A stretch of DNA of 43,514 nucleotides, taken from contig JBOZIK010000001.1 of the NCBI GenBank assembly GCA_051453625.1, forward strand, positions 29,906,968 to 29,950,481. Direction: 5' to 3'. The DNA comes from Welwitschia mirabilis. Lineage: Eukaryota. The notes beneath the pieces were generated by a model. The model did no database searches and was not told the DNA's origin. It saw only the letters and a list, made by a program, of their open reading frames with translations. This document shows positions 4,664 to 31,700 of this stretch, one piece after another (position 1 is the first letter of the stretch; each line of letters opens with the position of its first letter). A program made the translations under genes and the position numbers.

Positions 4664-5542
4664 NNNNNNNNNNNNNNNNNNNNNNNNNNNNNNNNNNNNN
4701 NNNNNNNNNNNNNNNNNNNNNNNNNNNNNNNNNNNNNNNNNNNNNNNNNNNNNNNNNNNNNNNNNNNNNNNNNNNNNNNNNNNNNNNNNNNNNNNNNNNN
4801 NNNNNNNNNNNNNNNNNNNNNNNNNNNNNNNNNNNNNNNNNNNNNNNNNNNNNNNNNNNNNNNNNNNNNNNNNNNNNNNNNNNNNNNNNNNNNNNNNNNN
4901 NNNNNNNNNNNNNNNNNNNNNNNNNNNNNNNNNNNNNNNNNNNNNNNNNNNNNNNNNNNNNNNNNNNNNNNNNNNNNNNNNNNNNNNNNNNNNNNNNNNN
5001 NNNNNNNNNNNNNNNNNNNNNNNNNNNNNNNNNNNNNNNNNNNNNNNNNNNNNNNNNNNNNNNNNNNNNNNNNNNNNNNNNNNNNNNNNNNNNNNNNNNN
5101 NNNNNNNNNNNNNNNNNNNNNNNNNNNNNNNNNNNNNNNNNNNNNNNNNNNNNNNNNNNNNNNNNNNNNNNNNNNNNNNNNNNNNNNNNNNNNNNNNNNN
5201 NNNNNNNNNNNNNNNNNNNNNNNNNNNNNNNNNNNNNNNNNNNNNNNNNNNNNNNNNNNNNNNNNNNNNNNNNNNNNNNNNNNNNNNNNNNNNNNNNNNN
5301 NNNNNNNNNNNNNNNNNNNNNNNNNNNNNNNNNNNNNNNNNNNNNNNNNNNNNNNNNNNNNNNNNNNNNNNNNNNNNNNNNNNNNNNNNNNNNNNNNNNN
5401 NNNNNNNNNNNNNNNNNNNNNNNNNNNNNNNNNNNNNNNNNNNNNNNNNNNNNNNNNNNNNNNNNNNNNNNNNNNNNNNNNNNNNNNNNNNNNNNNNNNN
5501 NNNNNNNNNNNNNNNNNNNNNNNNNNNNNNNNNNNNNNNNNN
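4664..5542. other. Assembly gap (879 N)
   Basis: Run of N. Confidence 1.
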
Positions 5543-5700: not shown

Positions 5701-5814
5701 TATAGCATTCTTTCTTAATTAAAGGTGAAATTTCATATTAGTAATACCACTCCGCTATATAGCATTCTTTCTTAATTAAAGGTGAACTTTCATATTAGTA
5801 ACACCACTTCCCTA
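5701..5814. repeat. 57-bp tandem duplication (2 copies)
   Basis: tatagcattctttcttaattaaaggtgaa.tttcatattagtaa.accact starts at 5701 and again at 5758. Confidence 0.9.
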
Positions 5815-5899: not shown

Positions 5900-6579
5900 C
5901 ATAATTCCTTTATCTATTTGTTATCATCCTCCATATTGGCATAATACTCTAACAAATCTACAATACTAAAAGTTTAAAAAAGTTTATGACTTTAACAAAG
6001 TTCTAATTTGTATGTATTTAAAGAAATATTTTTAACAATATTACATAATCCAAGCTTCCTACACTTTAGGTTGTTACATATTCCTATTAGGAACCTATCC
6101 TTTTAAATGTGTGTAAGTACTAGATCATTTTCTTCAAACTTAACATGTTTCCTTTGCTAATCCACCCTTTCCTAATACTCTATTTTTCAAGTCATATTTT
6201 CATATGATTATGAAGATTTATAATTCTAGTTGTAAATTCATCTATCATTACTAATAAATATTTTACCTTTTCAATCAAATATGGGACTTTTAGGTGGATT
6301 CCATATGCCACTTAGATTGGTATTTTTACTATGCATCTCTTAATGGAGTTATCATATGAAAACTTACTATGAAAGAGATAACTCTCTTATAAACTTGAAG
6401 TTTTATTACACAATCATTGTACCAAGTTTTTAATTCTTTGGTTAACCCATAGTTTTTAACCATTGATTTGTAGATGGCTAGTTGAAGAGAATTGTAACAT
6501 CGTTCTTAGAAATTTCCATATACTTTTCCAAAAATGAGATAAATGTTATATCTTTGTCCAAAACAATAGTGTTAGGTAA
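5900..6579 (-). mobile_element. Ty3/Gypsy integrase C-terminal part (continuation of the 10065-13400 element)
   Basis: Minus strand reads LPNTIVLDKDITF from 6579 (LPxTIVSDRDxxF), KFSYDNS..VAYG at about 6360-6300 (EFAYNNS...IVYG) and YKLEL at about 6010. It joins in frame to ...IRLYG on the other side of the Copia insertion. Confidence 0.85.
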
Positions 6580-6821
6580 TGAAGGGTTTGGAGAAACTCT
6601 TAAGGCACTAGGAAGGTGTTTAGCACTAAATTTGATCATTGAAATGCAGCTAAAATATTTTATTGATTTTAAATGAATTTATAGAAAATGACTTTCCATA
6701 TGGAGTATAACTAACCCAAAATCTATGAATCCACATCCCAACATTTGTGGATCTCAAACTAATACTATCTAATAAATCCTATTGAGCTTTTCAACAAAAA
6801 ATTTAAATAATTATCCTAACA
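6580..6821 (-). repeat. 3' LTR of the gag-only Copia element
   Basis: Minus strand TGTTAGGATAAT...AAACCCTTCA, immediately preceded by PPT-like tttgtcatcaagagggagct. Confidence 0.9.
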
Positions 6822-6925
6822 AGCTCCCTCTTGATGACAAATCTACGAATTAGATTTTTATTACATTTAAAGTGTTAGAACATGCCCTTAGCATAGTAAT
6901 TCATGTAGAATTTATTATAAAAGTA

Positions 6926-7077
6926 TGGACTAACCATTATAAAGTGGACTAACCATGACAATATGGATTATCTATGATAATGTGGACCAACCACAATAAT
7001 ATGAACTAACTATGATAATGTGGACTAACCGTGATAATATGAACTAACCATGATCATGTGGAGTAACCACGACAAGG
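6926..7077. repeat. 19-bp tandem minisatellite x8 (consensus tggactaaccatgataat[a/g]) in the 3' non-coding region of the Copia element
   Basis: Units start at 6926, 6945, 6964, 6983, 7002, 7021, 7040, 7059. The last base alternates g/a, giving a 38-bp higher-order period. Confidence 0.9.
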
Positions 7078-7149
7078 GACAAACCCAACATTTAAAAACT
7101 TAAATCTGTATCTTTAGAAGCTTCTTCTTTGCTTACTTTTACCATTATG

Positions 7150-8615
7150 CCTAAAGTCTTCAATTTTCCATCAGGTAGATCCTTTACTTATTGAAAGCGG
7201 TTTACTGCTACATGATCTTGCTTATTGCAACAATAGCATTTTGTCCTCACTTTGTCATCTTTTATGTCCTTTTCCTGAGAATTTTTCCTTGGAAATCTTG
7301 ATGCCATAATGCTTTTTTTTCCATAGGCCATTATTCTATTACAATAATTCTTGCTAGGAAGAACACCCACGTTGTGATGATTCCGAATAATTAAAGCACC
7401 TTCTTTGAGTTCACGTTGATACATCCTTTTATGTTCTTCAATGAGTGTGTGTCTAGTACTTTCTAATGTGCAAGAAATCTGCTTTAAAGAGAAGATGTTG
7501 TAACATCGAGAAGGAAGACTACTTAGTAGAATGACTTTGACATCTTCATTATCAACTCTTGAATTAACTGCTGTAAGTTATGACCAAAGTGATCTAAAGT
7601 AATTTATGTGTGGATTCATGTCTCGTAAATCTTCCATTCTCAAACTATAAAGTTAATGCTTTAGTTCTTGTTTATCTTCATTCCACTTGAACCAAATAAT
7701 TTGTATAAATCATCCTAGACTTGTTTTAAGCTTTTACTTAAGTCAAAAAATAATCATCCTCAAGACCAAATCCAATTAGAGAAAGGGCTTTTTATCATCA
7801 TCTTCCCAATAATTAATGTTTTTTTGGATCTTNNNNNNNNNNNNNNNNNNNNNNNNNNNNNNNNNNNNNNNNNNNNNNNNNNNNNNNNNNNNNNNNNNNN
7901 NNNNNNNNNNNNNNNNNNNNNNNNNNNNNNNNNNNNNNNNNNNNNNNNNNNNNNNNNNNNNNNNNNNNNNNNNNNNNNNNNNNNNNNNNNNNNNNNNNNN
8001 NNNNNNNNNNNNNNNNNNNNNNNNNNNNNNNNNNNNNNNNNNNNNNNNNNNNNNNNNNNNNNNNNNNNNNNNNNNNNNNNNNNNNNNNNNNNNNNNNNNN
8101 NNNNNNNNNNNNNNNNNNNNNNNNNNNNNNNNNNNNNNNNNNNNNNNNNNNNNNNNNNNNNNNNNNNNNNNNNNNNNNNNNNNNNNNNNNNNNNNNNNNN
8201 NNNNNNNNNNNNNNNNNNNNNNNNNNNNNNNNNNNNNNNNNNNNNNNNNNNNNNNNNNNNNNNNNNNNNNNNNNNNNNNNNNNNNNNNNNNNNNNNNNNN
8301 NNNNNNNNNNNNNNNNNNNNNNNNNNNNNNNNNNNNNNNNNNNNNNNNNNNNNNNNNNNNNNNNNNNNNNNNNNNNNNNNNNNNNNNNNNNNNNNNNNNN
8401 NNNNNNNNNNNNNNNNNNNNNNNNNNNNNNNNNNNNNNNNNNNNNNNNNNNNNNNNNNNNNNNNNNNNNNNNNNNNNNNNNNNNNNNNNNNNNNNNNNNN
8501 NNNNNNNNNNNNNNNNNNNNNNNNNNNNNNNNNNNNNNNNNNNNNNNNNNNNNNNNNNNNNNNNNNNNNNNCTTCCATTAAATTTTTCAATATTTTTTTG
8601 CTTAGCAGGAGTTCG
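7150..8615 (-). pseudogene. Degenerate Copia gag (UBN2-type, zinc knuckle), interrupted by an N gap
   Basis: AKQKNIEKFNG at about 8605-8573. YWEDDDKKPFSLIGFGLEDD at about 7812-7755. YSLRMEDL...VDNEDVKVILLSSLPS at about 7650-7510. CYCCNKQDH knuckle in ORF 7188-7424. Confidence 0.85.
7833..8571. other. Assembly gap (739 N) inside the Copia gag
   Basis: Run of N. The flanks are gag motifs that normally lie close together, so the gap size may be overestimated. Confidence 0.95.
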
Positions 8616-9240
8616 TAATTTTAAGCCCTCTAAAAGAGAATTATCTTTCTCAACTCACATCTAGAGGATTTAAATACCTCCTATAATGATATTCTTAAGG
8701 CTAAGGGTCATACCCCTTAGAACCCCTTTTAAACCTGAAAGTTCTTCTAAAGAGCCACCACCTTCAACTCTCCTCTTCACACACTCCAAAAAATACTTTT
8801 ATTAATTGTTTTATCTTATAAATACAAAAAGCTAATAAAATGCCTTATAAATAGCAAATGAATGAAGTGCTAGAAATTTTTTGTTAAAAAATGGGGATAG
8901 AAACATAGCCAAGGGATGAAAAAGATAGTGCAAGCAAATGGTAAACATAAAGATACAAACAAGCCTCTTTTAAATACAAATCCCTAGAACTTGTGGAAAC
9001 ATTCTCTTTCGAAACCCTCCGAGAGTTGAGAATCCCTGTCACACGAAGGAAGCAGCTGACGGAAGCCAGTCGGTCATCCAGCTTTGGAATCTTCGTAATG
9101 TATATGTGACTTCAATGGAATCTAATTGTAATAGCGCCATTCAAGTTGAAGGTCCATGAAAGAAAATGTGTGCTTCAAAATGAATTTGTAGCTGTACTAT
9201 CAGACAACAATGAAGGATTTATCGAGCAGAATATTTTTTG

Positions 9241-9575
9241 TTTACCACTGATCTTAGAAAGCTTTATGAAATCTTACTAATCAAATCTTGGAGTTGCTTG
9301 ACCGAAGATATGCTGCGGGTAAAATTTCTGTGAATGATGTAGATCATCACGCCATATATGCTCTAGCAGAGTGCTAGAGAGATATTTCCATGGCCGATTG
9401 CAAGACTTATTTGCAGAAGGCGTTTTACACTGGAGTTCGTTGAGCGGCATGCACGGGAGAGCAGATAATGTAGGCAAACACAACAGGTGGACAGTGGACA
9501 AGCCGCGTGGCACCGATGGCAGTGCGTGCAGAGATGAAGCTCGGGAAGAAGATAACGTAGCAAGCGGAACGGCAG
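9241..9575 (+). pseudogene. Gnk2/DUF26 (stress-antifungal) domain fragment of a cysteine-rich receptor-like kinase or secreted protein, captured antisense in the Copia leader
   Basis: Reads FTTDLRKLYE /frameshift at about 9270/ NLTNQILELLDRRYAAGKISVNDVDHHAIYALAEC*RDISMADCKTYLQKA. The C-X8-C-X2-C spacing is exact (Cys 9372, Cys 9399, TAT for TGT at 9408), with TAG at 9375 where TGG (W) is plausible. Followed by a CAG|GTAATT donor at 9576. Confidence 0.8.
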
Positions 9576-9680
9576 GTAATTTTGAGTGATCTCTTAAATG
9601 ATCTGAAACTTCCTTCAGCGATCACATATCATTCTTTTTCCTTGTTTTTGTCTTTCTGCTCTGCCTTGGATCTTTTGCAG
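9576..9680 (+). other. Putative 105-nt spliceosomal intron retained in the captured gene fragment
   Basis: CAG|GTAATT donor, long pyrimidine tract (ttctttttccttgtttttgtctttctgct) and TTTTGCAG acceptor. Confidence 0.65.
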
Positions 9681-9808
9681 ATCACTCTCTAAAACTGTCC
9701 TCTGCATAATCTCAATGAAATCGATCTGCTCACAGATACTCGGCACCAAAGCAATATGGAAATGATGCAGTCGAAGCTTGCACTTAGAGCCTACATGTCC
9801 CAGATTTT

Positions 9809-9820
9809 GCTTTGACACCA
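9809..9820 (-). promoter_or_regulatory. Primer-binding site (initiator Met tRNA type)
   Basis: Minus strand TGGTGTCAAAGC matches TGGTATCAGAGC at 10/12 and lies 2 nt from the 5' LTR end (CA-AT-TGG). Confidence 0.85.
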
Positions 9821-9822
9821 AT

Positions 9823-10064
9823 TGAAGGGTTTGGAGAAACCCTAAAGACAGTACAAAGGTGTTGAACACTAAATTTTATCATTGAAATGCAACTGAAATG
9901 CTTTATTGAGTTTTAATGAATTTATAAAAAATGACTTTCCATATAGAGCATAACTAGCCCGAAATCTATGGATCGACATCCCAACTTTTATAGATCTCAA
10001 ACTAATATTATCTAATAAATCCTATTGACATTTTCAATACAAATTTTAAATAATTATCCTAACA
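9823..10064 (-). repeat. 5' LTR of the gag-only Copia element
   Basis: 242 bp, colinear with 6580-6821, followed by the PBS. Confidence 0.9.
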
Positions 10065-13000
10065 AGTAAACCATACAACCTAATAGTATCATGAAAAAAA
10101 AAAATTTCTATAAGTGATGTATTACTTGTCTTGCTATATGGAGCAAAATGTGTTATTTTATCAAGTCTATCAATAACTACAAGTATGCAATTATTACCTC
10201 TTTTATAGTATGGTAAACTAAGAATAAAATTCGTACTTACATTCTTGCAAGGTCTTATAGCGACTAGTAATGCATGTACAATCTTGCATTAGAAGATTCC
10301 CCTTTAGTTCATTAACAAATCCCACAATTTTGCTTTTTTTTTTTTTTTTTTTGTATACATCCTTTTACAAGTCAAACCAATAGTCATTTCTTTACACTAA
10401 CTCATAGATTTTGTCCACCCTATAATGTCTTTACATTTTTCTATTATCTTTCCTAAAACATTTTATTCCTTAGAGAGCCATTAGGAACATAAAATTTTCC
10501 CTCCTTATAAAGAAGTCCCTCTTTAACATGAAAATATTTATAGTGATATCTTCTCACAAGTCTCTTTACCATTTACACTTCTTTAAAATGTAAACTATAT
10601 TCATAAAAATCTAAAAAATAAGGTATATTAACATCAAACTTGCAATGTCTCATCAAAAATCTAAGCCTACTTAATGTTTCTGCTATTTTATTGCATTTTT
10701 CCTTGTTATTGTTAATGAAAAATTTGAACTCCTACAAAGTTTATGTTCACTTAAACTACCTAGTACTTAATTTATCTTAGTGATTTAAATACTTTAAAAC
10801 TTTATGAACAAGGAAAAAAATGAAGTCCTTGTAATAAGTATGCATTCCTCTTTTTAAAAATTATTAGATAGCATATAAATCATTTTTTATAGGTTAAATA
10901 TCTTTAATTATCTTCATTTAAATTCTCATTAGATAATGTAATGCATTTATCCTCTTAGTTGATGACTTCACTAGTAAATATTATATTAGCATCACAATCC
11001 ACGTGAAATGATTTACTACAATCTAACAAGGCAAGAAAATACTATATCATAATATTAGTTTGAGTTCCTGAAATGTTGCATTTGCTACATTGGTCCATCT
11101 AAAAACTCTTACCTTTGTTATGATAGCTAGCATAAATGCATAGATCTTACTAGAATATTTAATTAAACTTCTCTAAAAACTAGATAACCCATGAAAGCAT
11201 CATAGATATTTTATTGAAGTTAGAATAGTTCCATTCATAATAGCTTTGACCTTATCAGGATCCATCTTGATATCATCATTGAATATCATCACTCTAAGGA
11301 ATATGAGTTCTCATTATGTAAGAACATTCTTCTTGTGATTCAACAATAATTGTTATTTTAATAACTACTATAAAACTTTCTGTAAATGGGCTACATTCTT
11401 TAATAAATTCTAGTTATAAACTAGAATACTATTTGGAAATACAATAATAAACCTTTCCAAAAGTAACTTCAACACCTCTTTTATCAATCTTATGAAAGTA
11501 ATATGTGCATTAGTTAGGTCAAATGGCATTACCAACCATTTATACAAGCTATTTGAAGTTTTAAAAGTAGTTTTCCATGCAGCTCCTTCCTTAATACTTA
11601 TGCTAGAATCTTAAAATCCATTTTACCCAAAAGACATGCACCCATTGTCTTGTTAACTATATCGTTCATGTTAGGAATTGAAAATTGGTATCTTGTTATA
11701 ATCTTATTTATATCGCTTCCATTAATACATAAATGCAATTCATCTCTATCCTTTCAAAATACTTTGTCTCACTAAGACCTTATCTAATAAATCATGTAAT
11801 TCCCTATTGATTTCTTCCCTTTCATGGGAATCCATTTGATGTGATAATTTATGGTGAAGAGTTGTCACTAGTACTGGGTTAATTTGTTGGTTAATGCTTT
11901 CCATTAACAACAACCCTAAAGGTAACTCATTACTAAAAAGATCTTTACAAAAATTCATCAAGTATTTTACCTCCTCCAGTTTTGTTTTTTCAGAATCTTT
12001 TTTAGTAACTAGCAAAACCGCTACCATTTTGTAACCACCTTCATCTATTTCTTTTTTTATTTTCTTTTTAGCTAACTAGAAAAATCCTATTTTTCCCTTA
12101 AATATCTTCTTCATCTAGAAATAGTTTAAATATCTTTTCATGTGCATCTATTTAAGGGTAAGTATTTTTCTTATTATTATGTGCACACATAGTATCAAAG
12201 CAAGAAATTCTACCAACTAATAAATAACATAAATCCATAGGAACAACATCAAACTTTAGAATATTATGAAAATTACAAATGTTAAAGTTAACAAGATATC
12301 ATTCAATGCAGAAAAAAAGACATTCATTTTGTAATTATGATGTGTTAAGGAATTTAGTGAGAAGCAACTTATAAATGTTGTTTCTTTATAATCTTCTTAT
12401 AACCCAAATTATCTATGCTATCACTATAAAAAATAACCTTACAAAACTCATCTTTATATATGCATTTTATCTTGAGCTTCTTATTCTTTGAGATGGATCA
12501 CAAAATTAAGTAAAATCATCTGTTAAAAAACATCTAAGTTCTCAACCTTTTCATTTGTTATTACTTTAATCACTTTTTTATCTACTGTCCTACTAAATTG
12601 TCCCCTTGTCATATACTATTACAACATGATTCACTTTTGGCTTTCTATATTTATGATCATATTCTTTATGACCTCCTTTATTTCAATTTTAATAAGTGGT
12701 GTATAAAATATTTTATCCTTATGATAGCTATCTTTTTCATCCTTATTTTTATCCTAGCCATATGATGATGTATTGTGTTTTGTGACTTCCTTTTTCTTTG
12801 GTTTTTGAAATCTTTATGTTTTCTTCTTTTTTCCTTTGTTTCTAGTAGAGATATTTTGTGTGCACTATACTTTCCCTTTATTTCATAAAACTAGTTGATC
12901 TATGTTCTTTACATTATTCGAACAAAATATAGAAACTTCATTTTAAATGGAAAATTTAAGGCTAATGATGTACCTTAGCACCTTGGTAATACCTTCTTTA

Positions 13001-22358: not shown

Positions 22359-23477
22359 ATGGGTGTTCTTTCTAACAGAATTAGCAGAGATGATCTTGCC
22401 GCAGGAGATCACATATATTCTTGGAGAACCGCATACACATACGCTCACCATGGTACTTTCCATTCTCTCTGTTTTGCCCCCATTTCTTTTCTTTTAATGT
22501 TTTTCATGGATTTTGTTTCTTTCGATTTGCGAAAAGTCACGCGGGTGATATAGCAGCTCGATTTGTTTATCGTAGATTTTGTACAGCCAGGAATTCTCTG
22601 TTAGCTTAGATTTGTTCTTGAGAAAGTTTTGCACAGTACATTTGATATTATTGAATACATTTTAGGTTTACTATGTTGAAACCCTAATGCAGTGTAAGGC
22701 TTTGTGTCTCGATTGTTCATTCTCAATTCTCGACGTGATCTTTTGTGTGTTCTTTTTCTGAGGATTGAACCAGGTCTGCTTGAGGTTTAGTTGTAAGATA
22801 TCGATTAATTGATCGTTAATATTTTGACTGATGTTTTCTAAGGGATTTACATGGGAGATGGAAGCGTTATTCACTTCACCAGAGGGCGAGGTGAAGAACT
22901 TGGCACTGGAACCGTCCTGGACGTGCTTCTGATGAGTTCAGGACCGTCTCATACGGCCGAGGACTGTCAAAATTGTAGCCAACGAAATGCTACGGGAGTT
23001 ACGAGATCTTGTCTGGATTGTTTCCTTGCTGGAGGAGCTTTATACAGATTTGAATACAATGTCACTCCCGCTTTCTTTCTTGCGAAAGCAAGAGGAGGAA
23101 CCTGCACTCTCGCTGCATCGGATCCTCCCGAAGCCGTTGTGTATCGAGCAAAATATCTACTAGACAACGGATTTGGTTGTTATAACATCTTTAAGAACAA
23201 CTGCGAAGATTTCGCAATTTATTGCAAGACAGGTTTACTTGTCATTGATAGGAATGCAATCGGAAGAAGCGGACAGGCGGCATCGTTTTTAGGCGCTCCG
23301 TTTGCTGCTGTCTTTTCAACTCCCTTGAGATTTTTTACCACTGATGTGCCTGGCATTACCGCCGTTGCAATAGGAACGTATTGCCTGAGTCGGTATGCAG
23401 CTGATATGGGTGTTCGGAAGGATGTTTCAAAGATAGCTGTTGAAAAGTTGGTCACAAAACTTGGCTTGAAGGCCTAA
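22359..23477 (+). CDS. PSE1: LRAT/NC-domain protein (permuted NlpC/P60 fold), LEAD-SENSITIVE 1 (PSE1)-like; join(22359..22452,22843..23477), 242 aa
   Basis: Exon 1 MGVLSNRISRDDLAAGDHIYSWRTAYTYAHH-G splices in phase 1 to GIYMGDGSVIHFTRG...GFGCYNIFKNNCEDFAIYCKTG. The HHG, IHF and NNCE catalytic motifs are intact, the intron is GT-AG, and there are no stops. Orthology versus plant paralogues is not established. Confidence 0.95.
22453..22842 (+). other. 390-nt phase-1 intron of the PSE1-like gene
   Basis: G|GTACTT donor, CTGAT branch-like motif at about 22828, TTTTCTAAG acceptor. T-rich. Splicing restores HHGIY. Contains an exact telo-box AAACCCTAA at 22679-22687. Confidence 0.93.
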
Positions 23478-28759: not shown

Positions 28760-31700
28760 AAGCAAAAGATCAGAATTCTAAATGTTCATAAAAAATGATT
28801 TCTACTCCAAAATCACAATGGATGGCTATGAGTTCACAAGTTGAAGCTATGTCAGCATGACTTGAGGTTTTAAAATGATTAATGGCAAATTTGTCTTCAA
28901 AAAACTGATACCCATCATGAAGAGGTTGTTGATAATGGGTCAAAAAGAAGAATATTTTGAAAACAAAGATAGAGATGATATGAAAATGTTGATCTATAAG
29001 GCTATTTTGGAGCAAGAGAAGAATGAAAAAGCTCTTAATCTTTGAATTGTGGGCATTATAGAAAATGAAAATCAAGATTCATCCACAAAAATGTTAGAAT
29101 TCTTTTGAAAGGAGATGTGCATTTTAGACAGACCCAAAAAGAAAATAAAGGTGATAGATCTTGGTGTATATCATCAAGTTTCAAGATTTAGAATCTTAAA
29201 CTATAAGCAATGTAAAAGGGAAAACATTATGGATTAATGAAGATTTCATGAAAAAAGAATTTGCACAGGAAGCAGAAGGACGGAAAAAGGTAAAGGCTGT
29301 TAGAACAAAACGCAAAAGTGCATATTTGAATGACAAAAATATAACAGTAATTAAAAAAGATAAAATTCAAAAAAGGGCTTTAAGTATTATGTCATGGCTT
29401 CTTAACATTAATGGTGGCTTTGTAAATAAGGTAACAACTTTGGATAGTATGTTTTTTTAATGATTTTTGATATCTTTGGTTTTGTTTAAAGATGAGCTCA
29501 TGACTATTCAAAAGAAGTTTATATCCTATGATTTTTTAAGTTTTCTGTTTTTAATCATAGAGAAAGCAGAAGAGGTCGATCTTTTGATGAAATCACTTAC
29601 ATTGTCAAAAATAGTATCAAAAAATTTGTTGAAATAGTATAAAAAAATTTGTTGATATTGTTGTGATCGACAAGCATAAGCAATTCATTTGGCTTAAAAT
29701 CTCTCATTGCTCTAATGAATTTCATTTGGGTTTCTATTATTTCGCATCCAATGGTGTTTTATTCTGTAATCATTTAAGAATATCTGACGATCTTCCTTTT
29801 GTTTATTTGAAGATAGCGTTTTAAGAATTTTAGATAAAAGAGATATTTCTGTCTATGGTGATTTTAATGCAAAAGTTAGTAAAAGTCAAGTTGGAATGTT
29901 AAAATGGGAGCAAGTTAATGGTTGGATNNNNNNNNNNNNNNNNNNNNNNNNNNNNNNNNNNNNNNNNNNNNNNNNNNNNNNNNNNNNNNNNNNNNNNNNN
30001 NNNNNNNNNNNNNNNNNNNNNNNNNNNTAAAAGTCAAGTTGGAATGTTAAAATGGGAGCAAGTTAATGGTTGGATAGATGATTATACTCATGATCATTAA
30101 GTTTGATCTTCATCATATGAAGAGTTCAATGAAATAGAAAAAACGTTTCTTTCATAGTTCTAGAGTATGGTATCTTCTTATTCTTAATGATGTGAGAATT
30201 TTCCCAAAAGTAGGTTTGCTCGCTTTTATAGGGCCCCAAGGAAATTTTTGCATTAATTTTCTTCTAGCTAATCGACAAACTATTCATTTGATTCAAAATT
30301 TTAAAGTTTGTGATGCATTGGTTGAATTCAAACATTATCTCTTAGATTTCACTATTGCAACTAGCTTGAAAAATTAAGGTGGCAAAAAATTTAAGATCCA
30401 TTAAATCATTACAAAAAGATTTAAAAGATAGGTATTATGATGAACTGCAAAAATGTTGGATAGTGATCATTCATAAGGGAGATATTTTCAAACTCTTTTA
30501 CAGGATTCCAAAGAAGCAGGCAGATTTCAAAAAGGGAAAGCTCGAAAAAGATGTTTAATGCAAAATGCAAGAATGCGAGATTAGAAATGGAAAGGCAAAC
30601 AAATGAACAAAGAGATGTAATAATAAAAGATTATAAGAGATGTGCCTTTATGAAAGAGTAATAAGCTCAATTTGTCCAAATGGTTAGAAATGAGCCTAAA
30701 AAATTCTAGTAATTGTTTTAAATTAGAAAGGAAGAGTTTAAAGTTTCCTTTAAGAACATTAAATGATTCTTTAAAAATCTTTTAGTTTCGACTGAACAAA
30801 AAAGTGTATGTTATTTTTTTGTGCCAACATCTAGATAACTTTCAATGAAGTTGAAGAAGGCATTTAAAAAACTCATTATTAATAAGACAATAGACGACTT
30901 TGGTCTTTATGCGAAGTTTCTTAAAGGAGGAGGAAGTCCTATTTATGAAGCAATATGAAATAACTCAAATGAAAGTCTTCAAAACAAAAAATGGAGAACT
31001 GACAAAGTTGTGACTCCCTTCGAAAGGGTAACGAAGCAGATTTGATTAGTTATAAATTCATTGTCATGAGTAATTAGTTTTTCTAAGCTTGGGAACTATA
31101 TTGGAAAGAAGAGTTTGTAAGTGGATAGAGGAAAACAAAATGAGAGCAATTTCACAGACAGGTTTTCATCAAAATCATTTTGCCATTAACCACTTAGTCA
31201 CTCTTCATTACTACTTGGATTTTGTGAAGAAACCTAGAAAAATGGTTTCCATTTTTCTCTTATGATCTCAATCAAAGGCTTATGATGTAGTAGCATTGAT
31301 TCAATATAAGTATGCATACAGATCTTCTTTCTGGTATTCAAATATTATATGAAGAAGTTATCATTAGATTTGAAGATGTTAATTCAATGAGTCTTTTAGT
31401 GAAATTGGAGTAAGACAAGGATGCCCTCTTCTTCCTACCTTATTGATAATTTTTATTGATGAATTGGAGGAATGGATTCATGATATTGCCACATATCACT
31501 CTATTAAGATAAGTGGTTTGCTAATAAATCTTCCCCTTTATATAGATGATGCCACATGTGTTTCAATGTCTGGTAGAGATCTAAAGATATGCTTTGGATG
31601 AATTTTGCAATAATTCAAGTTTGAGTGAATGTTGAGAAACCTAAATCACATGTTGTAAAAATAGAAGCAAAGATTAAAAATTTGTGCTTGGTCATAAACC

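What the first reader, a model, noticed from the sequence alone, without database searches (positions are those of the whole stretch)
9000..9808. Gag-only Copia element carries an antisense, intron-retaining fragment of a Gnk2/DUF26 (CRK-type) defence gene in its leader
Seen: between the PBS (9809-9820) and the gag start (about 8610) of the minus-strand element, the plus strand encodes RRYAAGKISV...IYALAEC*RDISMADCKTYLQKA. It has exact C-X8-C-X2-C spacing, and both lesions are single G>A changes. A GT-AG intron (9576-9680) follows. Established: this motif defines Gnk2/DUF26 domains of cysteine-rich receptor-like kinases and secreted proteins, and an antisense intron survives retrotransposition because it is not spliced. 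Inference: this is host-gene capture by an LTR element. LTR-driven transcripts would be antisense to the parental immune-receptor gene and could supply siRNAs acting on it in trans.
Basis: partly seen in the sequence, partly recalled or inferred. Interest (0 to 1): 0.8.

Follow-up and report, generated by a model that had tools for sequence, protein, structure and literature searches.

The report
Dead DUF26 gene scrap inside retrotransposon
An old, broken gag-only Copia retrotransposon in a plant genome carries a 187-base dead scrap of a DUF26 (Gnk2-type) defence-gene exon on its opposite strand, which is an ordinary kind of gene-fragment insertion and brings no intron with it.

Summary
Window 9264-9425 (+) is a real DUF26 remnant: phmmer E=1.6e-10 against 1.84 billion proteins, and 7 of the 8 hits carry PF01657. 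Same-species DUF26 genes read G at both lesions. It lies antisense inside a minus-strand gag-only Copia element with LTRs at 6580-6821 and 9823-10064 (87% identical), a PBS-like site and gag (PF14223).

Most of the interpretation does not hold. Public contigs show a second copy of this low-copy leader, about 87% alike, that lacks exactly 9241-9427. DUF26 homology ends within 2-11 bases of those breakpoints. So the scrap is a private 187-bp insertion into an existing leader, not cargo shared by the family.

The GT-AG "intron" (9576-9680) lies 150 bases away, in sequence the DUF26-less copy also has. No DUF26 homology flanks it, so "intron-retaining" is unsupported.

The scrap has four in-frame stops, not two. 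Two RNA-seq runs gave no reads from the locus, only reads from other DUF26 genes. "CRK-type" cannot be shown, because no kinase is present.

My best reading is an ectopic patch from double-strand-break repair, or less likely an RT template switch. It is now an inert relic. siRNA cross-talk is untested and is a known idea. Interest is low.

The parts
6575..6579 (.). Left target-site duplication candidate, GGTAA
   Evidence: Read from the sequence. It matches AGTAA at 10065-10069 in 4 of 5 positions.
6580..6821 (-). 3' LTR of the minus-strand element (242 bp, TG..CA ends on the minus strand)
   Evidence: Repeat pair found. 211 of 242 positions are identical to 9823-10064 (18 transitions, 13 transversions, K2P 0.142).
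6822..6838 (-). Polypurine-tract-like stretch next to the 3' LTR (minus strand reads ..AAGAGGGAGCT)
   Evidence: Read from the sequence. Not tested further.
6919..7089 (.). 19-bp tandem repeats between the end of gag and the 3' LTR
   Evidence: Family D1, spacing 19.
7191..7832 (-). C-terminal part of gag, with 6 stops in frame and a degenerate zinc-knuckle-like CYCCNKQDH
   Evidence: P0010. PF14223 Retrotran_gag_2, E=9.9e-10, 38.6 bits (gathering score 27), profile positions 82-170 of 172.
7833..8571 (.). Assembly gap (739 N) inside gag
   Evidence: Continuity across it is untested. The gag pieces on both sides have the same strand and the expected order.
8572..8654 (-). N-terminal gag stretch (..KQKNIEKFNG)
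   Evidence: Translation. The likeness to Copia gag N-termini is recalled, and Pfam gave no hit for this 27-residue piece.
8877..9797 (-). Low-copy part of the leader. It is richer in GC than the element (0.37-0.57 against 0.28 for the LTR) and is seen in only two copies in the public DNA runs.
   Evidence: Summed contig depth is about 4-10 here, against 90-160 on the LTR. GC values. Four X1 contigs share the LTR and PBS region down to 9798 and then diverge.
9241..9427 (+). DUF26-derived exon fragment (187 bp), antisense to the element. It has 4 in-frame stops and is absent from the second copy of the leader.
   Evidence: Paralogous contigs skip it: X2 record 9 and X1 record 1, both with left breakpoint 9240. 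DUF26 homology spans 9264-9425. A related 326-nt contig aligns over 9252-9419 with 27 differences. phmmer E=1.6e-10. Both junctions are bridged by near-identical contigs of an independent run, X2 records 8 and 11.
9372..9410 (+). Degenerate C-X8-C-X2-C core, reading C-*RDISMAD-C-KT-Y
   Evidence: Relatives read TGG and TGT at the two lesions.
9428..9575 (.). GC-rich stretch (0.57) of unknown origin, present in both leader copies
   Evidence: GC. No DUF26 homology in any frame. No homologue for the 83-aa ORF at 9338-9586.
9576..9680 (+). Intron-like GT..AG stretch (CAG|GTAAT ... TTTTGCAG|A, 46% T). It is not part of the DUF26 fragment.
   Evidence: Sequence. It is shared with the DUF26-less copy, which aligns over 9456-9692, and no RNA joint or RNA read lies on it.
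9809..9820 (-). PBS-like site TGGTGTCAAAGC, 2 bases after the LTR end
   Evidence: Sequence. The 10-of-12 match to the initiator tRNA-Met PBS is recalled, not tested.
9823..10064 (-). 5' LTR of the minus-strand element
   Evidence: It is multi-copy in the public DNA runs, with 24-33 contigs over single positions.
10065..10069 (.). Right target-site duplication candidate, AGTAA
   Evidence: Read from the sequence.

Best explanation
Shown:
- Window 9241-9427 is a dead 187-bp piece of an exon of a DUF26 (Gnk2-type, PF01657) gene. It covers roughly the middle half of one DUF26 domain, including the C-X8-C-X2-C core.
- It sits antisense in the roughly 1.2-kb leader of an old, degenerate, non-autonomous gag-only Copia-type LTR retrotransposon (6580-10064, minus strand, LTRs 13% diverged).
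- The piece is private to this copy. A second copy of the same low-copy leader lacks exactly this stretch.
- The intron-like stretch 150 bases further on is not part of the DUF26 fragment.

Inferred:
- A short copy of a DUF26 exon was patched into an already existing leader.
- The most likely route is at the DNA level, during repair of a double-strand break. The copy would be made from an ectopic template, as with filler DNA or synthesis-dependent strand annealing, helped by the short repeat TTTAC(C)ACTG / CACTG at the junctions.
- It has since decayed by mostly C>T / G>A transitions, as silenced repeats do.
- It encodes nothing, and no transcript of it was seen. I read it as an inert relic.
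For: 1. DUF26 origin.
- phmmer gives 8 hits at E<=0.001, best 1.6e-10, and 7 of the 8 carry PF01657.
- My own DUF26 HMM hits only 9264-9425 (+), i-E 5.5e-9.
- Contig depth rises over 9304-9425, with up to 12 related contigs.
- RNA reads of other DUF26 genes overlap 9370-9406/9425. By my hand translation of their loose-end letters, their flanks continue as DUF26 coding sequence.

2. Private insertion.
- X2 record 9 (894 nt) aligns to 8667-9240 and 9456-9692. The 27 letters in between match 9428-9454. So it lacks 9241-9427.
- X1 record 1 has the same left breakpoint, 9240.
- DUF26 homology ends at 9252/9264 on the left and 9419/9425 on the right. That is within 2-11 bases of the indel ends, which a random deletion would rarely achieve.

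3. The junctions are real. X2 records 8, 11 and 12 tile 8572-10034 with 5, 0 and 0 other letters, and they bridge 9240/9241, 9427/9428 and the PBS/LTR border.

4. Element anatomy.

5. No TE termini. An imperfect direct repeat is seen at both junctions.

6. Orientation. The antisense placement fits an orientation-blind DNA-level event better than copying of a sense mRNA by reverse transcriptase. This is inference from the known polarity of reverse transcription.

7. Precedent. Filler DNA copied from elsewhere at repaired breaks is documented in plants (PMC2686159, passages read).

8. No locus transcript. All 47 reads laid in X13 and all 136 in X16 lie only partly on the stretch, within 9304-9425. 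46 of 47 and 132 of 136 are under 90% alike. No reads lie on 8877-9242 or on 9426-10400.
Against: - Polarity rests on one comparison copy. There is no outgroup, so a deletion in the other copy is not formally excluded.
- Only contig tables were seen, not the contig sequences. Only 57% (X1) and 87% (X2) of each run's contigs were read, and the tool leaves some records out.
- The filler DNA described in the paper I read is mostly under 131 bp and copied from nearby sites (PMC2686159). Here the piece is 187 bp and no DUF26 gene lies in the window.
- The 9-10-base imperfect direct repeat could instead be a target duplication from some other insertion process.
- The Pfam match extends to residue 61 (window 9455), which is 28 bases past the breakpoint. 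My own HMM does not confirm that extension.
- Absence of RNA reads in two partly sampled poly(A)/cDNA runs does not show silence, and it says nothing about small RNAs.
Confidence: 0.68

Rival explanations
1. Capture at retrotransposition. While the cDNA of this copy was being made, reverse transcriptase switched from the element RNA to a co-packaged RNA carrying DUF26 sequence and then switched back. On this view the element itself acquired the fragment. This is the core of the first reader's idea, without the intron.
For: - The piece lies strictly inside the element, between the PBS and gag.
- Short homology at the junctions (CACTG / TTTAC) would help template jumps.
- Abnormal template switching and gene fragments inside LTR retrotransposons are documented: PMC13317346 (passages read), and PMC2774510 (passages read), which reports 425 maize elements with gene fragments from at least 189 captures.
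- The piece lies within one exon, so an RNA donor is possible.
Against: - The antisense orientation needs an antisense DUF26 transcript as the template. This is inference from the polarity of reverse transcription.
- No other copy with the piece was seen. The only other copy of this leader lacks it.
- Nothing distinguishes this from a DNA-level patch.
Confidence: 0.2
2. The whole low-copy leader (8877-9797) is an antisense captured genic segment containing a real intron (9576-9680). The DUF26 piece is an original part of that segment and was deleted from the second copy.
For: - The leader is richer in GC than the element: 0.37-0.57 against 0.28.
- CAG|GTAAT ... TTTTGCAG|A is a good splice-like pair, and the GC content drops exactly at 9575/9576.
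- CAGGTAA occurs only 4 times and TTTGCAG only 6 times on both strands of the window.
- The Pfam alignment runs to window 9455.
- CACTG at 9246-9250 and at 9428-9432 could have mediated a deletion.
Against: - There is no DUF26 homology outside 9264-9425 in any frame of 8800-9830.
- Related DUF26 contigs and transcripts diverge from the window at 9419-9425.
- The indel ends coincide with the homology ends.
- No third, parental copy of 9428-9797 at 80% likeness or more appears in X2.
- No homologue was found for the 83-aa ORF.
- No RNA read or joint lies on it.
Confidence: 0.07
3. Chance resemblance or assembly artefact: there is no real DUF26-derived sequence here.
For: - The Pfam score is below the gathering cut-off.
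- A word-based search found nothing.
- A rival weak match exists to the hnRNP Q acidic domain: Pfam E=0.13 and PDB E=0.024.
Against: - phmmer gives E=1.6e-10, with 7 of 8 hits being DUF26 proteins.
- There is nucleotide-level likeness to same-species DUF26 contigs and transcripts.
- Independent runs from 3 studies hold the stretch, and their contigs bridge both junctions.
Confidence: 0.02

Closest known systems
Gene fragments inside plant LTR retrotransposons (maize Bs1; genome-wide surveys in maize, rice and sorghum)
   Same: A piece of a host exon lies between the LTRs of an LTR retrotransposon, non-functional and decaying. Such cases are common. PMC2774510 (passages read) reports 425 intact maize elements with fragments from at least 189 captures. 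10.1101/777037 (abstract and passages read) reports fragments in 3% of Sireviruses.
   Different: According to the review passages read (PMC13317346), Bs1 cargo is in sense orientation, spans several genes and is fused into an ORF. Here there is one 187-bp antisense scrap, seen in a single copy, with no sign that it was ever mobilised.
Filler DNA / ectopic patches at repaired double-strand breaks in plants
   Same: An insertion relative to a sister copy. It has no transposon termini, has short homology at the junctions, and its template exists elsewhere in the genome (PMC2686159, passages read).
   Different: The examples cited in the paper read are mostly 8-131 bp and copied from nearby sites. 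This piece is 187 bp and its donor is not in the 43.5-kb window. No associated deletion can be scored.
TR-GAG: terminal-repeat retrotransposons with a gag domain only
   Same: LTRs, a PBS-like site, a PPT-like stretch and a gag ORF, with no room for pol. The internal region is about 3 kb including the 739-N gap.
   Different: It may simply be a deletion derivative of an autonomous Copia element. Family-wide structure was not examined. The term was seen only in search listings, and its definition is recalled.
siRNA cross-talk between TE-captured exon fragments and donor genes (conflict model in maize)
   Same: A silenced TE holding an exon fragment yields siRNAs that also match the donor gene (10.1101/777037, abstract and passages read).
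   Different: Nothing of this was tested here. The main expressed relatives share at most 14 identical bases in a row with the piece. A minor expressed relative may share about 32, counting only the differences listed.

Membership tests
DUF26 / Gnk2 domain (Pfam PF01657 Stress-antifung) | Profile match at or above Pfam's gathering score | tested here: not met
   19.5 bits against a cut-off of 25, E=0.0016, profile positions 44-80 of 99 only. Homology as such is nevertheless significant.
DUF26 / Gnk2 domain (Pfam PF01657 Stress-antifung) | Intact C-X8-C-X2-C motif | tested here: not met
   It reads C-*RDISMAD-C-KT-Y, so the third Cys is Tyr and the first X is a stop. The spacing is exact, and relatives read G at both lesions.
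DUF26 / Gnk2 domain (Pfam PF01657 Stress-antifung) | Complete domain of about 100 residues in an open frame | tested here: not met
   Only about 54 codons (9264-9425) are homologous, and 9241-9427 holds 4 in-frame stops. It is a remnant derived from the family, not a working member.
Cysteine-rich receptor-like kinase (CRK) | DUF26 ectodomain joined to a transmembrane segment and a protein kinase domain | tested here: not met
   No Pkinase and no second PF01657 among 112 ORFs of 55 aa or more in the window. Only 1 of 7 DUF26 hits has kinase domains. The donor could be a CRK, a secreted CRRSP or a PDLP, and this cannot be told from the piece.
LTR retrotransposon, Copia type | Two LTRs in direct orientation with TG..CA ends and a flanking target duplication | tested here: met
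   242-bp LTRs with 211 of 242 positions identical, TG..CA ends on the minus strand, and TSD GGTAA/AGTAA matching at 4 of 5.
LTR retrotransposon, Copia type | Copia-type gag | tested here: met
   PF14223, E=9.9e-10, 38.6 bits against a cut-off of 27.
LTR retrotransposon, Copia type | PBS complementary to the 3' end of a tRNA, next to the 5' LTR | tested here: inconclusive
   TGGTGTCAAAGC lies 2 bases from the LTR end. The 10-of-12 match to the initiator tRNA-Met PBS is recalled and was not computed against a tRNA.
Gag-only non-autonomous element (TR-GAG) | gag present; protease, integrase and RT/RNase H absent | tested here: met
   The internal region 6822-9822 is 3001 bp including the 739-N gap. 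Only gag was found. Whether this is a family trait or a private deletion was not tested.
Gene fragment captured and carried by an LTR retrotransposon (transduced cargo) | The same fragment at the same junctions in several independently inserted copies | tested here: not met
   The only other copy of this leader lacks 9241-9427. At least 4 more family members diverge directly after the PBS region. The test is limited to contigs of two DNA runs.
Gene fragment captured and carried by an LTR retrotransposon (transduced cargo) | Antisense intron of the donor gene retained | tested here: not met
   The intron-like stretch 9576-9680 is separated from the DUF26 piece by 148 bases without DUF26 homology, and it is present in the DUF26-less copy.
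Filler DNA / ectopic repair patch | Insertion relative to a sister sequence, no TE termini, junction microhomology, template elsewhere in the genome | tested here: inconclusive
   All four features are seen. But polarity rests on one sister copy, and the true donor was not identified.

The most novel reading that the evidence does not exclude
The DUF26 scrap is not inert. As part of a silenced Copia element it is covered by 24-nt RdDM siRNAs, and some of them still match an expressed DUF26 defence gene. A minor transcript class is 90-95% alike to the piece, and may share about 32 identical bases over 9377-9408. A private repair patch in a dead retrotransposon would then tune methylation or expression of an immune-receptor-family gene in trans. 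Separately, the GC-rich, intron-like leader shared by two copies may be a second, older antisense capture of an unidentified gene.
Probability: 0.1. Interest if true: 0.45.

Novelty: new member of a known kind. Interest (0 to 1): 0.2.

Why it matters
This matters little beyond annotation. It is one more example of a host exon scrap lodged in a plant LTR retrotransposon, which is documented by the hundreds in maize, rice and sorghum.

The case is tidy in one respect. A sister copy without the scrap pins the insertion to 187 bases and shows that the scrap was not family cargo. That cautions against reading every gene fragment between LTRs as "capture by the element".

If small-RNA data showed cross-talk with an expressed DUF26 gene, it would add a defence-gene example to the known TE-gene epigenetic conflict model. 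It would not open a new question.

Tried and rejected
- The whole-genome search of the window's own assembly was not possible because no genome is held.
I replaced them with a scan of 112 stop-to-stop ORFs of 55 aa or more. That scan can miss short or frameshifted remnants.
- The word-based protein search with P0001 against longer proteins gave 32 candidates, none at E<=0.1.
- hnRNP Q acidic domain: Pfam E=0.13 and PDB 2mxt/2nbb E=0.024/0.037. I rejected this as chance, because the library-wide search and the same-species reads point to DUF26. PDB 6grf (cysteine-rich repeat secretory protein 15) reached only E=0.38.
- P0008, the one non-DUF26 hit (query residues 54-87, E=7.5e-5), is a repetitive predicted protein with no family. 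I treated it as spurious.
- The 83-aa ORF at 9338-9586 in the GC-rich stretch has no homologue. The Atlas hits fall below the recognition threshold.
- Rfam on 8572-10100 at E<=1 gave no match.
- Earlier findings of this scan, by sequence and by genome, gave nothing.
- No RNA holder was listed for the stretch in the run index.
- I looked for the "usual" family leader, taken from the loose-end consensus next to 9798, elsewhere in the window. The result was 0 matches, plus 1 match at chance level. So the far boundary of the low-copy leader could not be placed.
- TE termini for the 187-bp piece: no terminal inverted repeats, and no poly(A) or poly(T) between repeat and insert (by eye). I rejected a MITE, Pack-MULE or LINE-mediated origin.
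- A paper search for DUF26 together with retrotransposon and gene fragment listed no paper holding "DUF26" among the 8 shown, out of 1,218 that held two of the three terms. This is not a claim that none exists.
Full report
**What is in the sequence**

The window is AT-rich (GC 0.298), repeat-laden plant-like DNA with five N gaps. A 242-bp direct repeat lies at 6580-6821 and 9823-10064. 211 of 242 positions are identical, with 18 transitions and 13 transversions, giving K2P 0.142. There is no third copy in the window.

Read on the minus strand, the repeats start with TG and end with CA. They are flanked by GGTAA and AGTAA, which match at 4 of 5 positions. Two bases inside the right-hand repeat lies TGGTGTCAAAGC. 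From memory, this is 10 of 12 identical to the initiator tRNA-Met primer-binding site. A purine-rich stretch lies next to the left-hand repeat.

The minus strand reads ..KQKNIEKFNG at about 8600. After a 739-N gap comes a gag remnant with 6 stops, which matches PF14223 (gag-polypeptide of LTR copia-type) at E=9.9e-10 and 38.6 bits, above the cut-off of 27. Between the end of gag (7191) and the 3' LTR there are only 369 bases, much of them a 19-bp tandem repeat.

This is an old, degenerate, gag-only Copia-type element on the minus strand, with a leader of about 1.2 kb. With LTR substitution rates recalled from the literature (about 0.7-1.3e-8 per site per year), K2P 0.142 means roughly 5-10 million years.

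**Is the DUF26 resemblance real?**

The + strand reads ...LTNQILELLDRRYAAGKISVNDVDHHAIYALAEC*RDISMADCKTYLQKAF.... Pfam alone is marginal: PF01657 at E=0.0016 and 19.5 bits, under the gathering score of 25, covering profile positions 44-80 of 99. A word-indexed search found nothing.

An exhaustive phmmer search of 1.84 billion representatives gave 8 proteins at E<=0.001, the best at 1.6e-10. Seven of the 8 carry PF01657 at E between 1e-43 and 5e-130, and one of those seven also has kinase domains. The eighth is a repetitive protein with no family, and it matches a different part of the query.

I built an HMM from 34 DUF26 repeats cut out of those seven proteins. In all six frames of 8800-9830 it hits only the + frame at 9264-9425, with i-E 5.5e-9. 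Every other frame scores E>=0.33.

A weak rival likeness to the hnRNP Q acidic domain is chance by comparison.

**Evidence from public reads**

The index found the stretch in 12 DNA runs of 3 studies under two coded organism labels. I laid two DNA contig sets (X1, X2) and two raw RNA-seq runs (X13, X16) on 8572-10400, at 80% likeness or more. Five results matter.

1. *Copy number.* The LTR is multi-copy, with summed depth 90-160 and 24-33 contigs over single positions. The leader at 8877-9791 has depth about 4-10, meaning one or two copies.

2. *Junctions.* Near-identical contigs of X2 tile the stretch. Record 8 covers 8572-9406, record 11 covers 9379-9692 and record 12 covers 9667-10034, with 5, 0 and 0 other letters. 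They bridge both ends of the DUF26 piece and the PBS/LTR border, so the arrangement is not an assembly accident of the window.

3. *A second copy without the piece.* A second leader copy, about 87% alike, exists in both organisms. X2 record 9 (894 nt) aligns to 8667-9240 and 9456-9692, and the 27 letters in between match 9428-9454. X1 record 1 (593 nt) has the same left breakpoint, 9240. This copy therefore lacks 9241-9427, which is 187 bases.

4. *Other DUF26 loci.* Depth rises to 26-66 over 9304-9425, with up to 12 contigs, which I read as other DUF26 loci. One 326-nt contig aligns over 9252-9419 with 27 differences and runs on unlike the window at both ends.

5. *RNA.* All 47 reads laid in X13 and all 136 in X16 lie only partly on the stretch, within 9304-9425. 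46 of 47 and 132 of 136 are under 90% alike.
   - The bulk overlap only 9370-9406. Their loose ends, which I translated by hand, read on as ..NFPKIYGLVQ-CWKDISMDDCKTC.., so they are transcripts of other DUF26 genes.
   - Four X16 reads are 90-95% alike.
   - Seven reads diverge from the window right after 9425.
   - No read lies on 8877-9242 or on 9426-10400, and there is no joint at 9576/9680.

**What this means**

DUF26 homology ends at 9252/9264 on the left and 9419/9425 on the right. The DUF26-less copy breaks at 9240/9428. Both ends agree to within 2-11 bases. That is what an insertion of a DUF26 piece into an existing leader predicts. A random deletion in a 900-base leader would rarely remove exactly the foreign part.

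At least 4 further family members share the LTR and PBS region only down to 9798 and then have a different leader. A motif from that usual leader is not found in the window.

The piece has no inverted termini and no poly(A). TTTAC(C)ACTG at 9241-9250 recurs as TTTACACTG at 9424-9432. This could be junction microhomology or a short target duplication.

The piece has four in-frame stops (9249, 9255, 9267, 9375) plus the Cys>Tyr change.

**The "intron"**

CAG|GTAAT at 9575/9576 and TTTTGCAG|A at 9680/9681 exist. The GC content drops from 0.57 to 0.36 at the first site. CAGGTAA occurs 4 times and TTTGCAG 6 times on both strands of the window, so the pair is mildly unusual.

However, it lies 148 bases beyond the DUF26 piece. 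The intervening sequence has no DUF26 homology, and the DUF26-less copy also contains it. The 83-aa ORF over the GC-rich stretch has no homologue, Rfam finds nothing, and no RNA read lies on it.

"Intron-retaining DUF26 fragment" is therefore not supported. Whether the low-copy, GC-richer leader is an older capture of some other gene stays open.

**Mechanism**

My best reading, with about 0.5 of the weight within an overall confidence of 0.68, is a DNA-level patch. A break in the leader of this genomic copy was repaired by copying about 175-187 bases from a DUF26 exon elsewhere. This is orientation-blind and leaves no TE termini. Such filler DNA is documented in plants (PMC2686159, passages read), though mostly shorter and from nearby templates.

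An RT template switch during the retrotransposition that made this copy is the main rival, at 0.2. It is documented as a capture route (PMC13317346, passages read). But it predicts sense orientation unless an antisense DUF26 RNA was packaged.

Chance or artefact gets 0.02.

**Function**

Nothing suggests one. The siRNA idea is the published TE-gene cross-talk model (10.1101/777037, abstract and passages read) and was not testable here.

Sequence-wise, the dominant expressed relatives share at most 14 identical bases in a row with the piece, given their differences at 9376, 9379, 9394 and 9395. A minor transcript class lacks three of these differences and could share about 32 identical bases (9377-9408). 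That count uses only the differences listed, and 230 further differences were not shown.

**Novelty**

Gene fragments inside plant LTR retrotransposons are common. PMC2774510 (passages read) reports 425 maize elements with fragments from at least 189 captures. 10.1101/777037 reports fragments in 3% of Sireviruses. This is a new instance of a known kind.

"CRK-type" is unproven. No kinase is found in 112 ORFs of the window, and most of the best hits are kinase-less DUF26 proteins.

**Limits**

- No genome was available.
- I saw contig tables, not contig sequences.
- Only part of each run was read: 57%, 87%, 26% and 25%.
- Polarity of the indel rests on one sister copy.
- Continuity across the 739-N gap is untested, although the gag pieces on both sides agree in strand and order.

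Noticed in passing
window 22842-23474 (+): An open 211-codon stretch with a strong LRAT / NlpC-P60-type domain (PF04970, E=4.1e-21, 75.9 bits). It is the only clear non-TE coding sequence found among 112 ORFs, and is probably an exon of a real host gene.
   Followed up: no
window 8877-9797: The leader of this element is low-copy (two copies in the public runs) and richer in GC (0.37-0.57) than the element and the window (0.28-0.30). It holds a splice-like GT..AG pair at 9576-9680. Other family members have a different leader directly after the PBS region. Its origin is unknown, and it may be an older acquisition.
   Followed up: partly
window 10046-10288 (-), 11413-11610 (-), 31383-31598 (+): The Copia element sits in degenerate retroelement sequence. 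By eye, an integrase-like stretch (..ILVVIDRLDKITHF..) directly flanks the 5' LTR, though Pfam found nothing there at E<=0.01. Two sub-threshold RVT_1 matches were found (E=0.0023 and 1.4e-5). The flank at 10097-10279 is also multi-copy in the DNA runs.
   Followed up: partly
window 6919-7089: About nine tandem 19-bp units (..ATGTGGACTAACC..) lie between the end of gag and the 3' LTR of the element.
   Followed up: no
window 5701-5814: Two tandem 57-bp units, 93% alike, lie just after the 4664-5542 N gap.
   Followed up: no
window 8593-8664: Several related contigs (5 or more across X1 and X2) skip 58-65 bases here, near the gag start. Many family members therefore differ from this copy by an indel of about 62 bp.
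   Followed up: no
window 8755-8876: Summed contig depth jumps to 240-850 in X1 and 126-409 in X2. This AT-rich stretch of the leader is much more repeated than the LTR itself, either as a simple-sequence effect or as a separate abundant repeat.
   Followed up: no
window 9273-9410 (+): The same peptide that matches DUF26 also gives a weak match to the hnRNP Q acidic domain (PF18360, E=0.13; PDB 2mxt, E=0.024). I judged it chance.
   Followed up: yes
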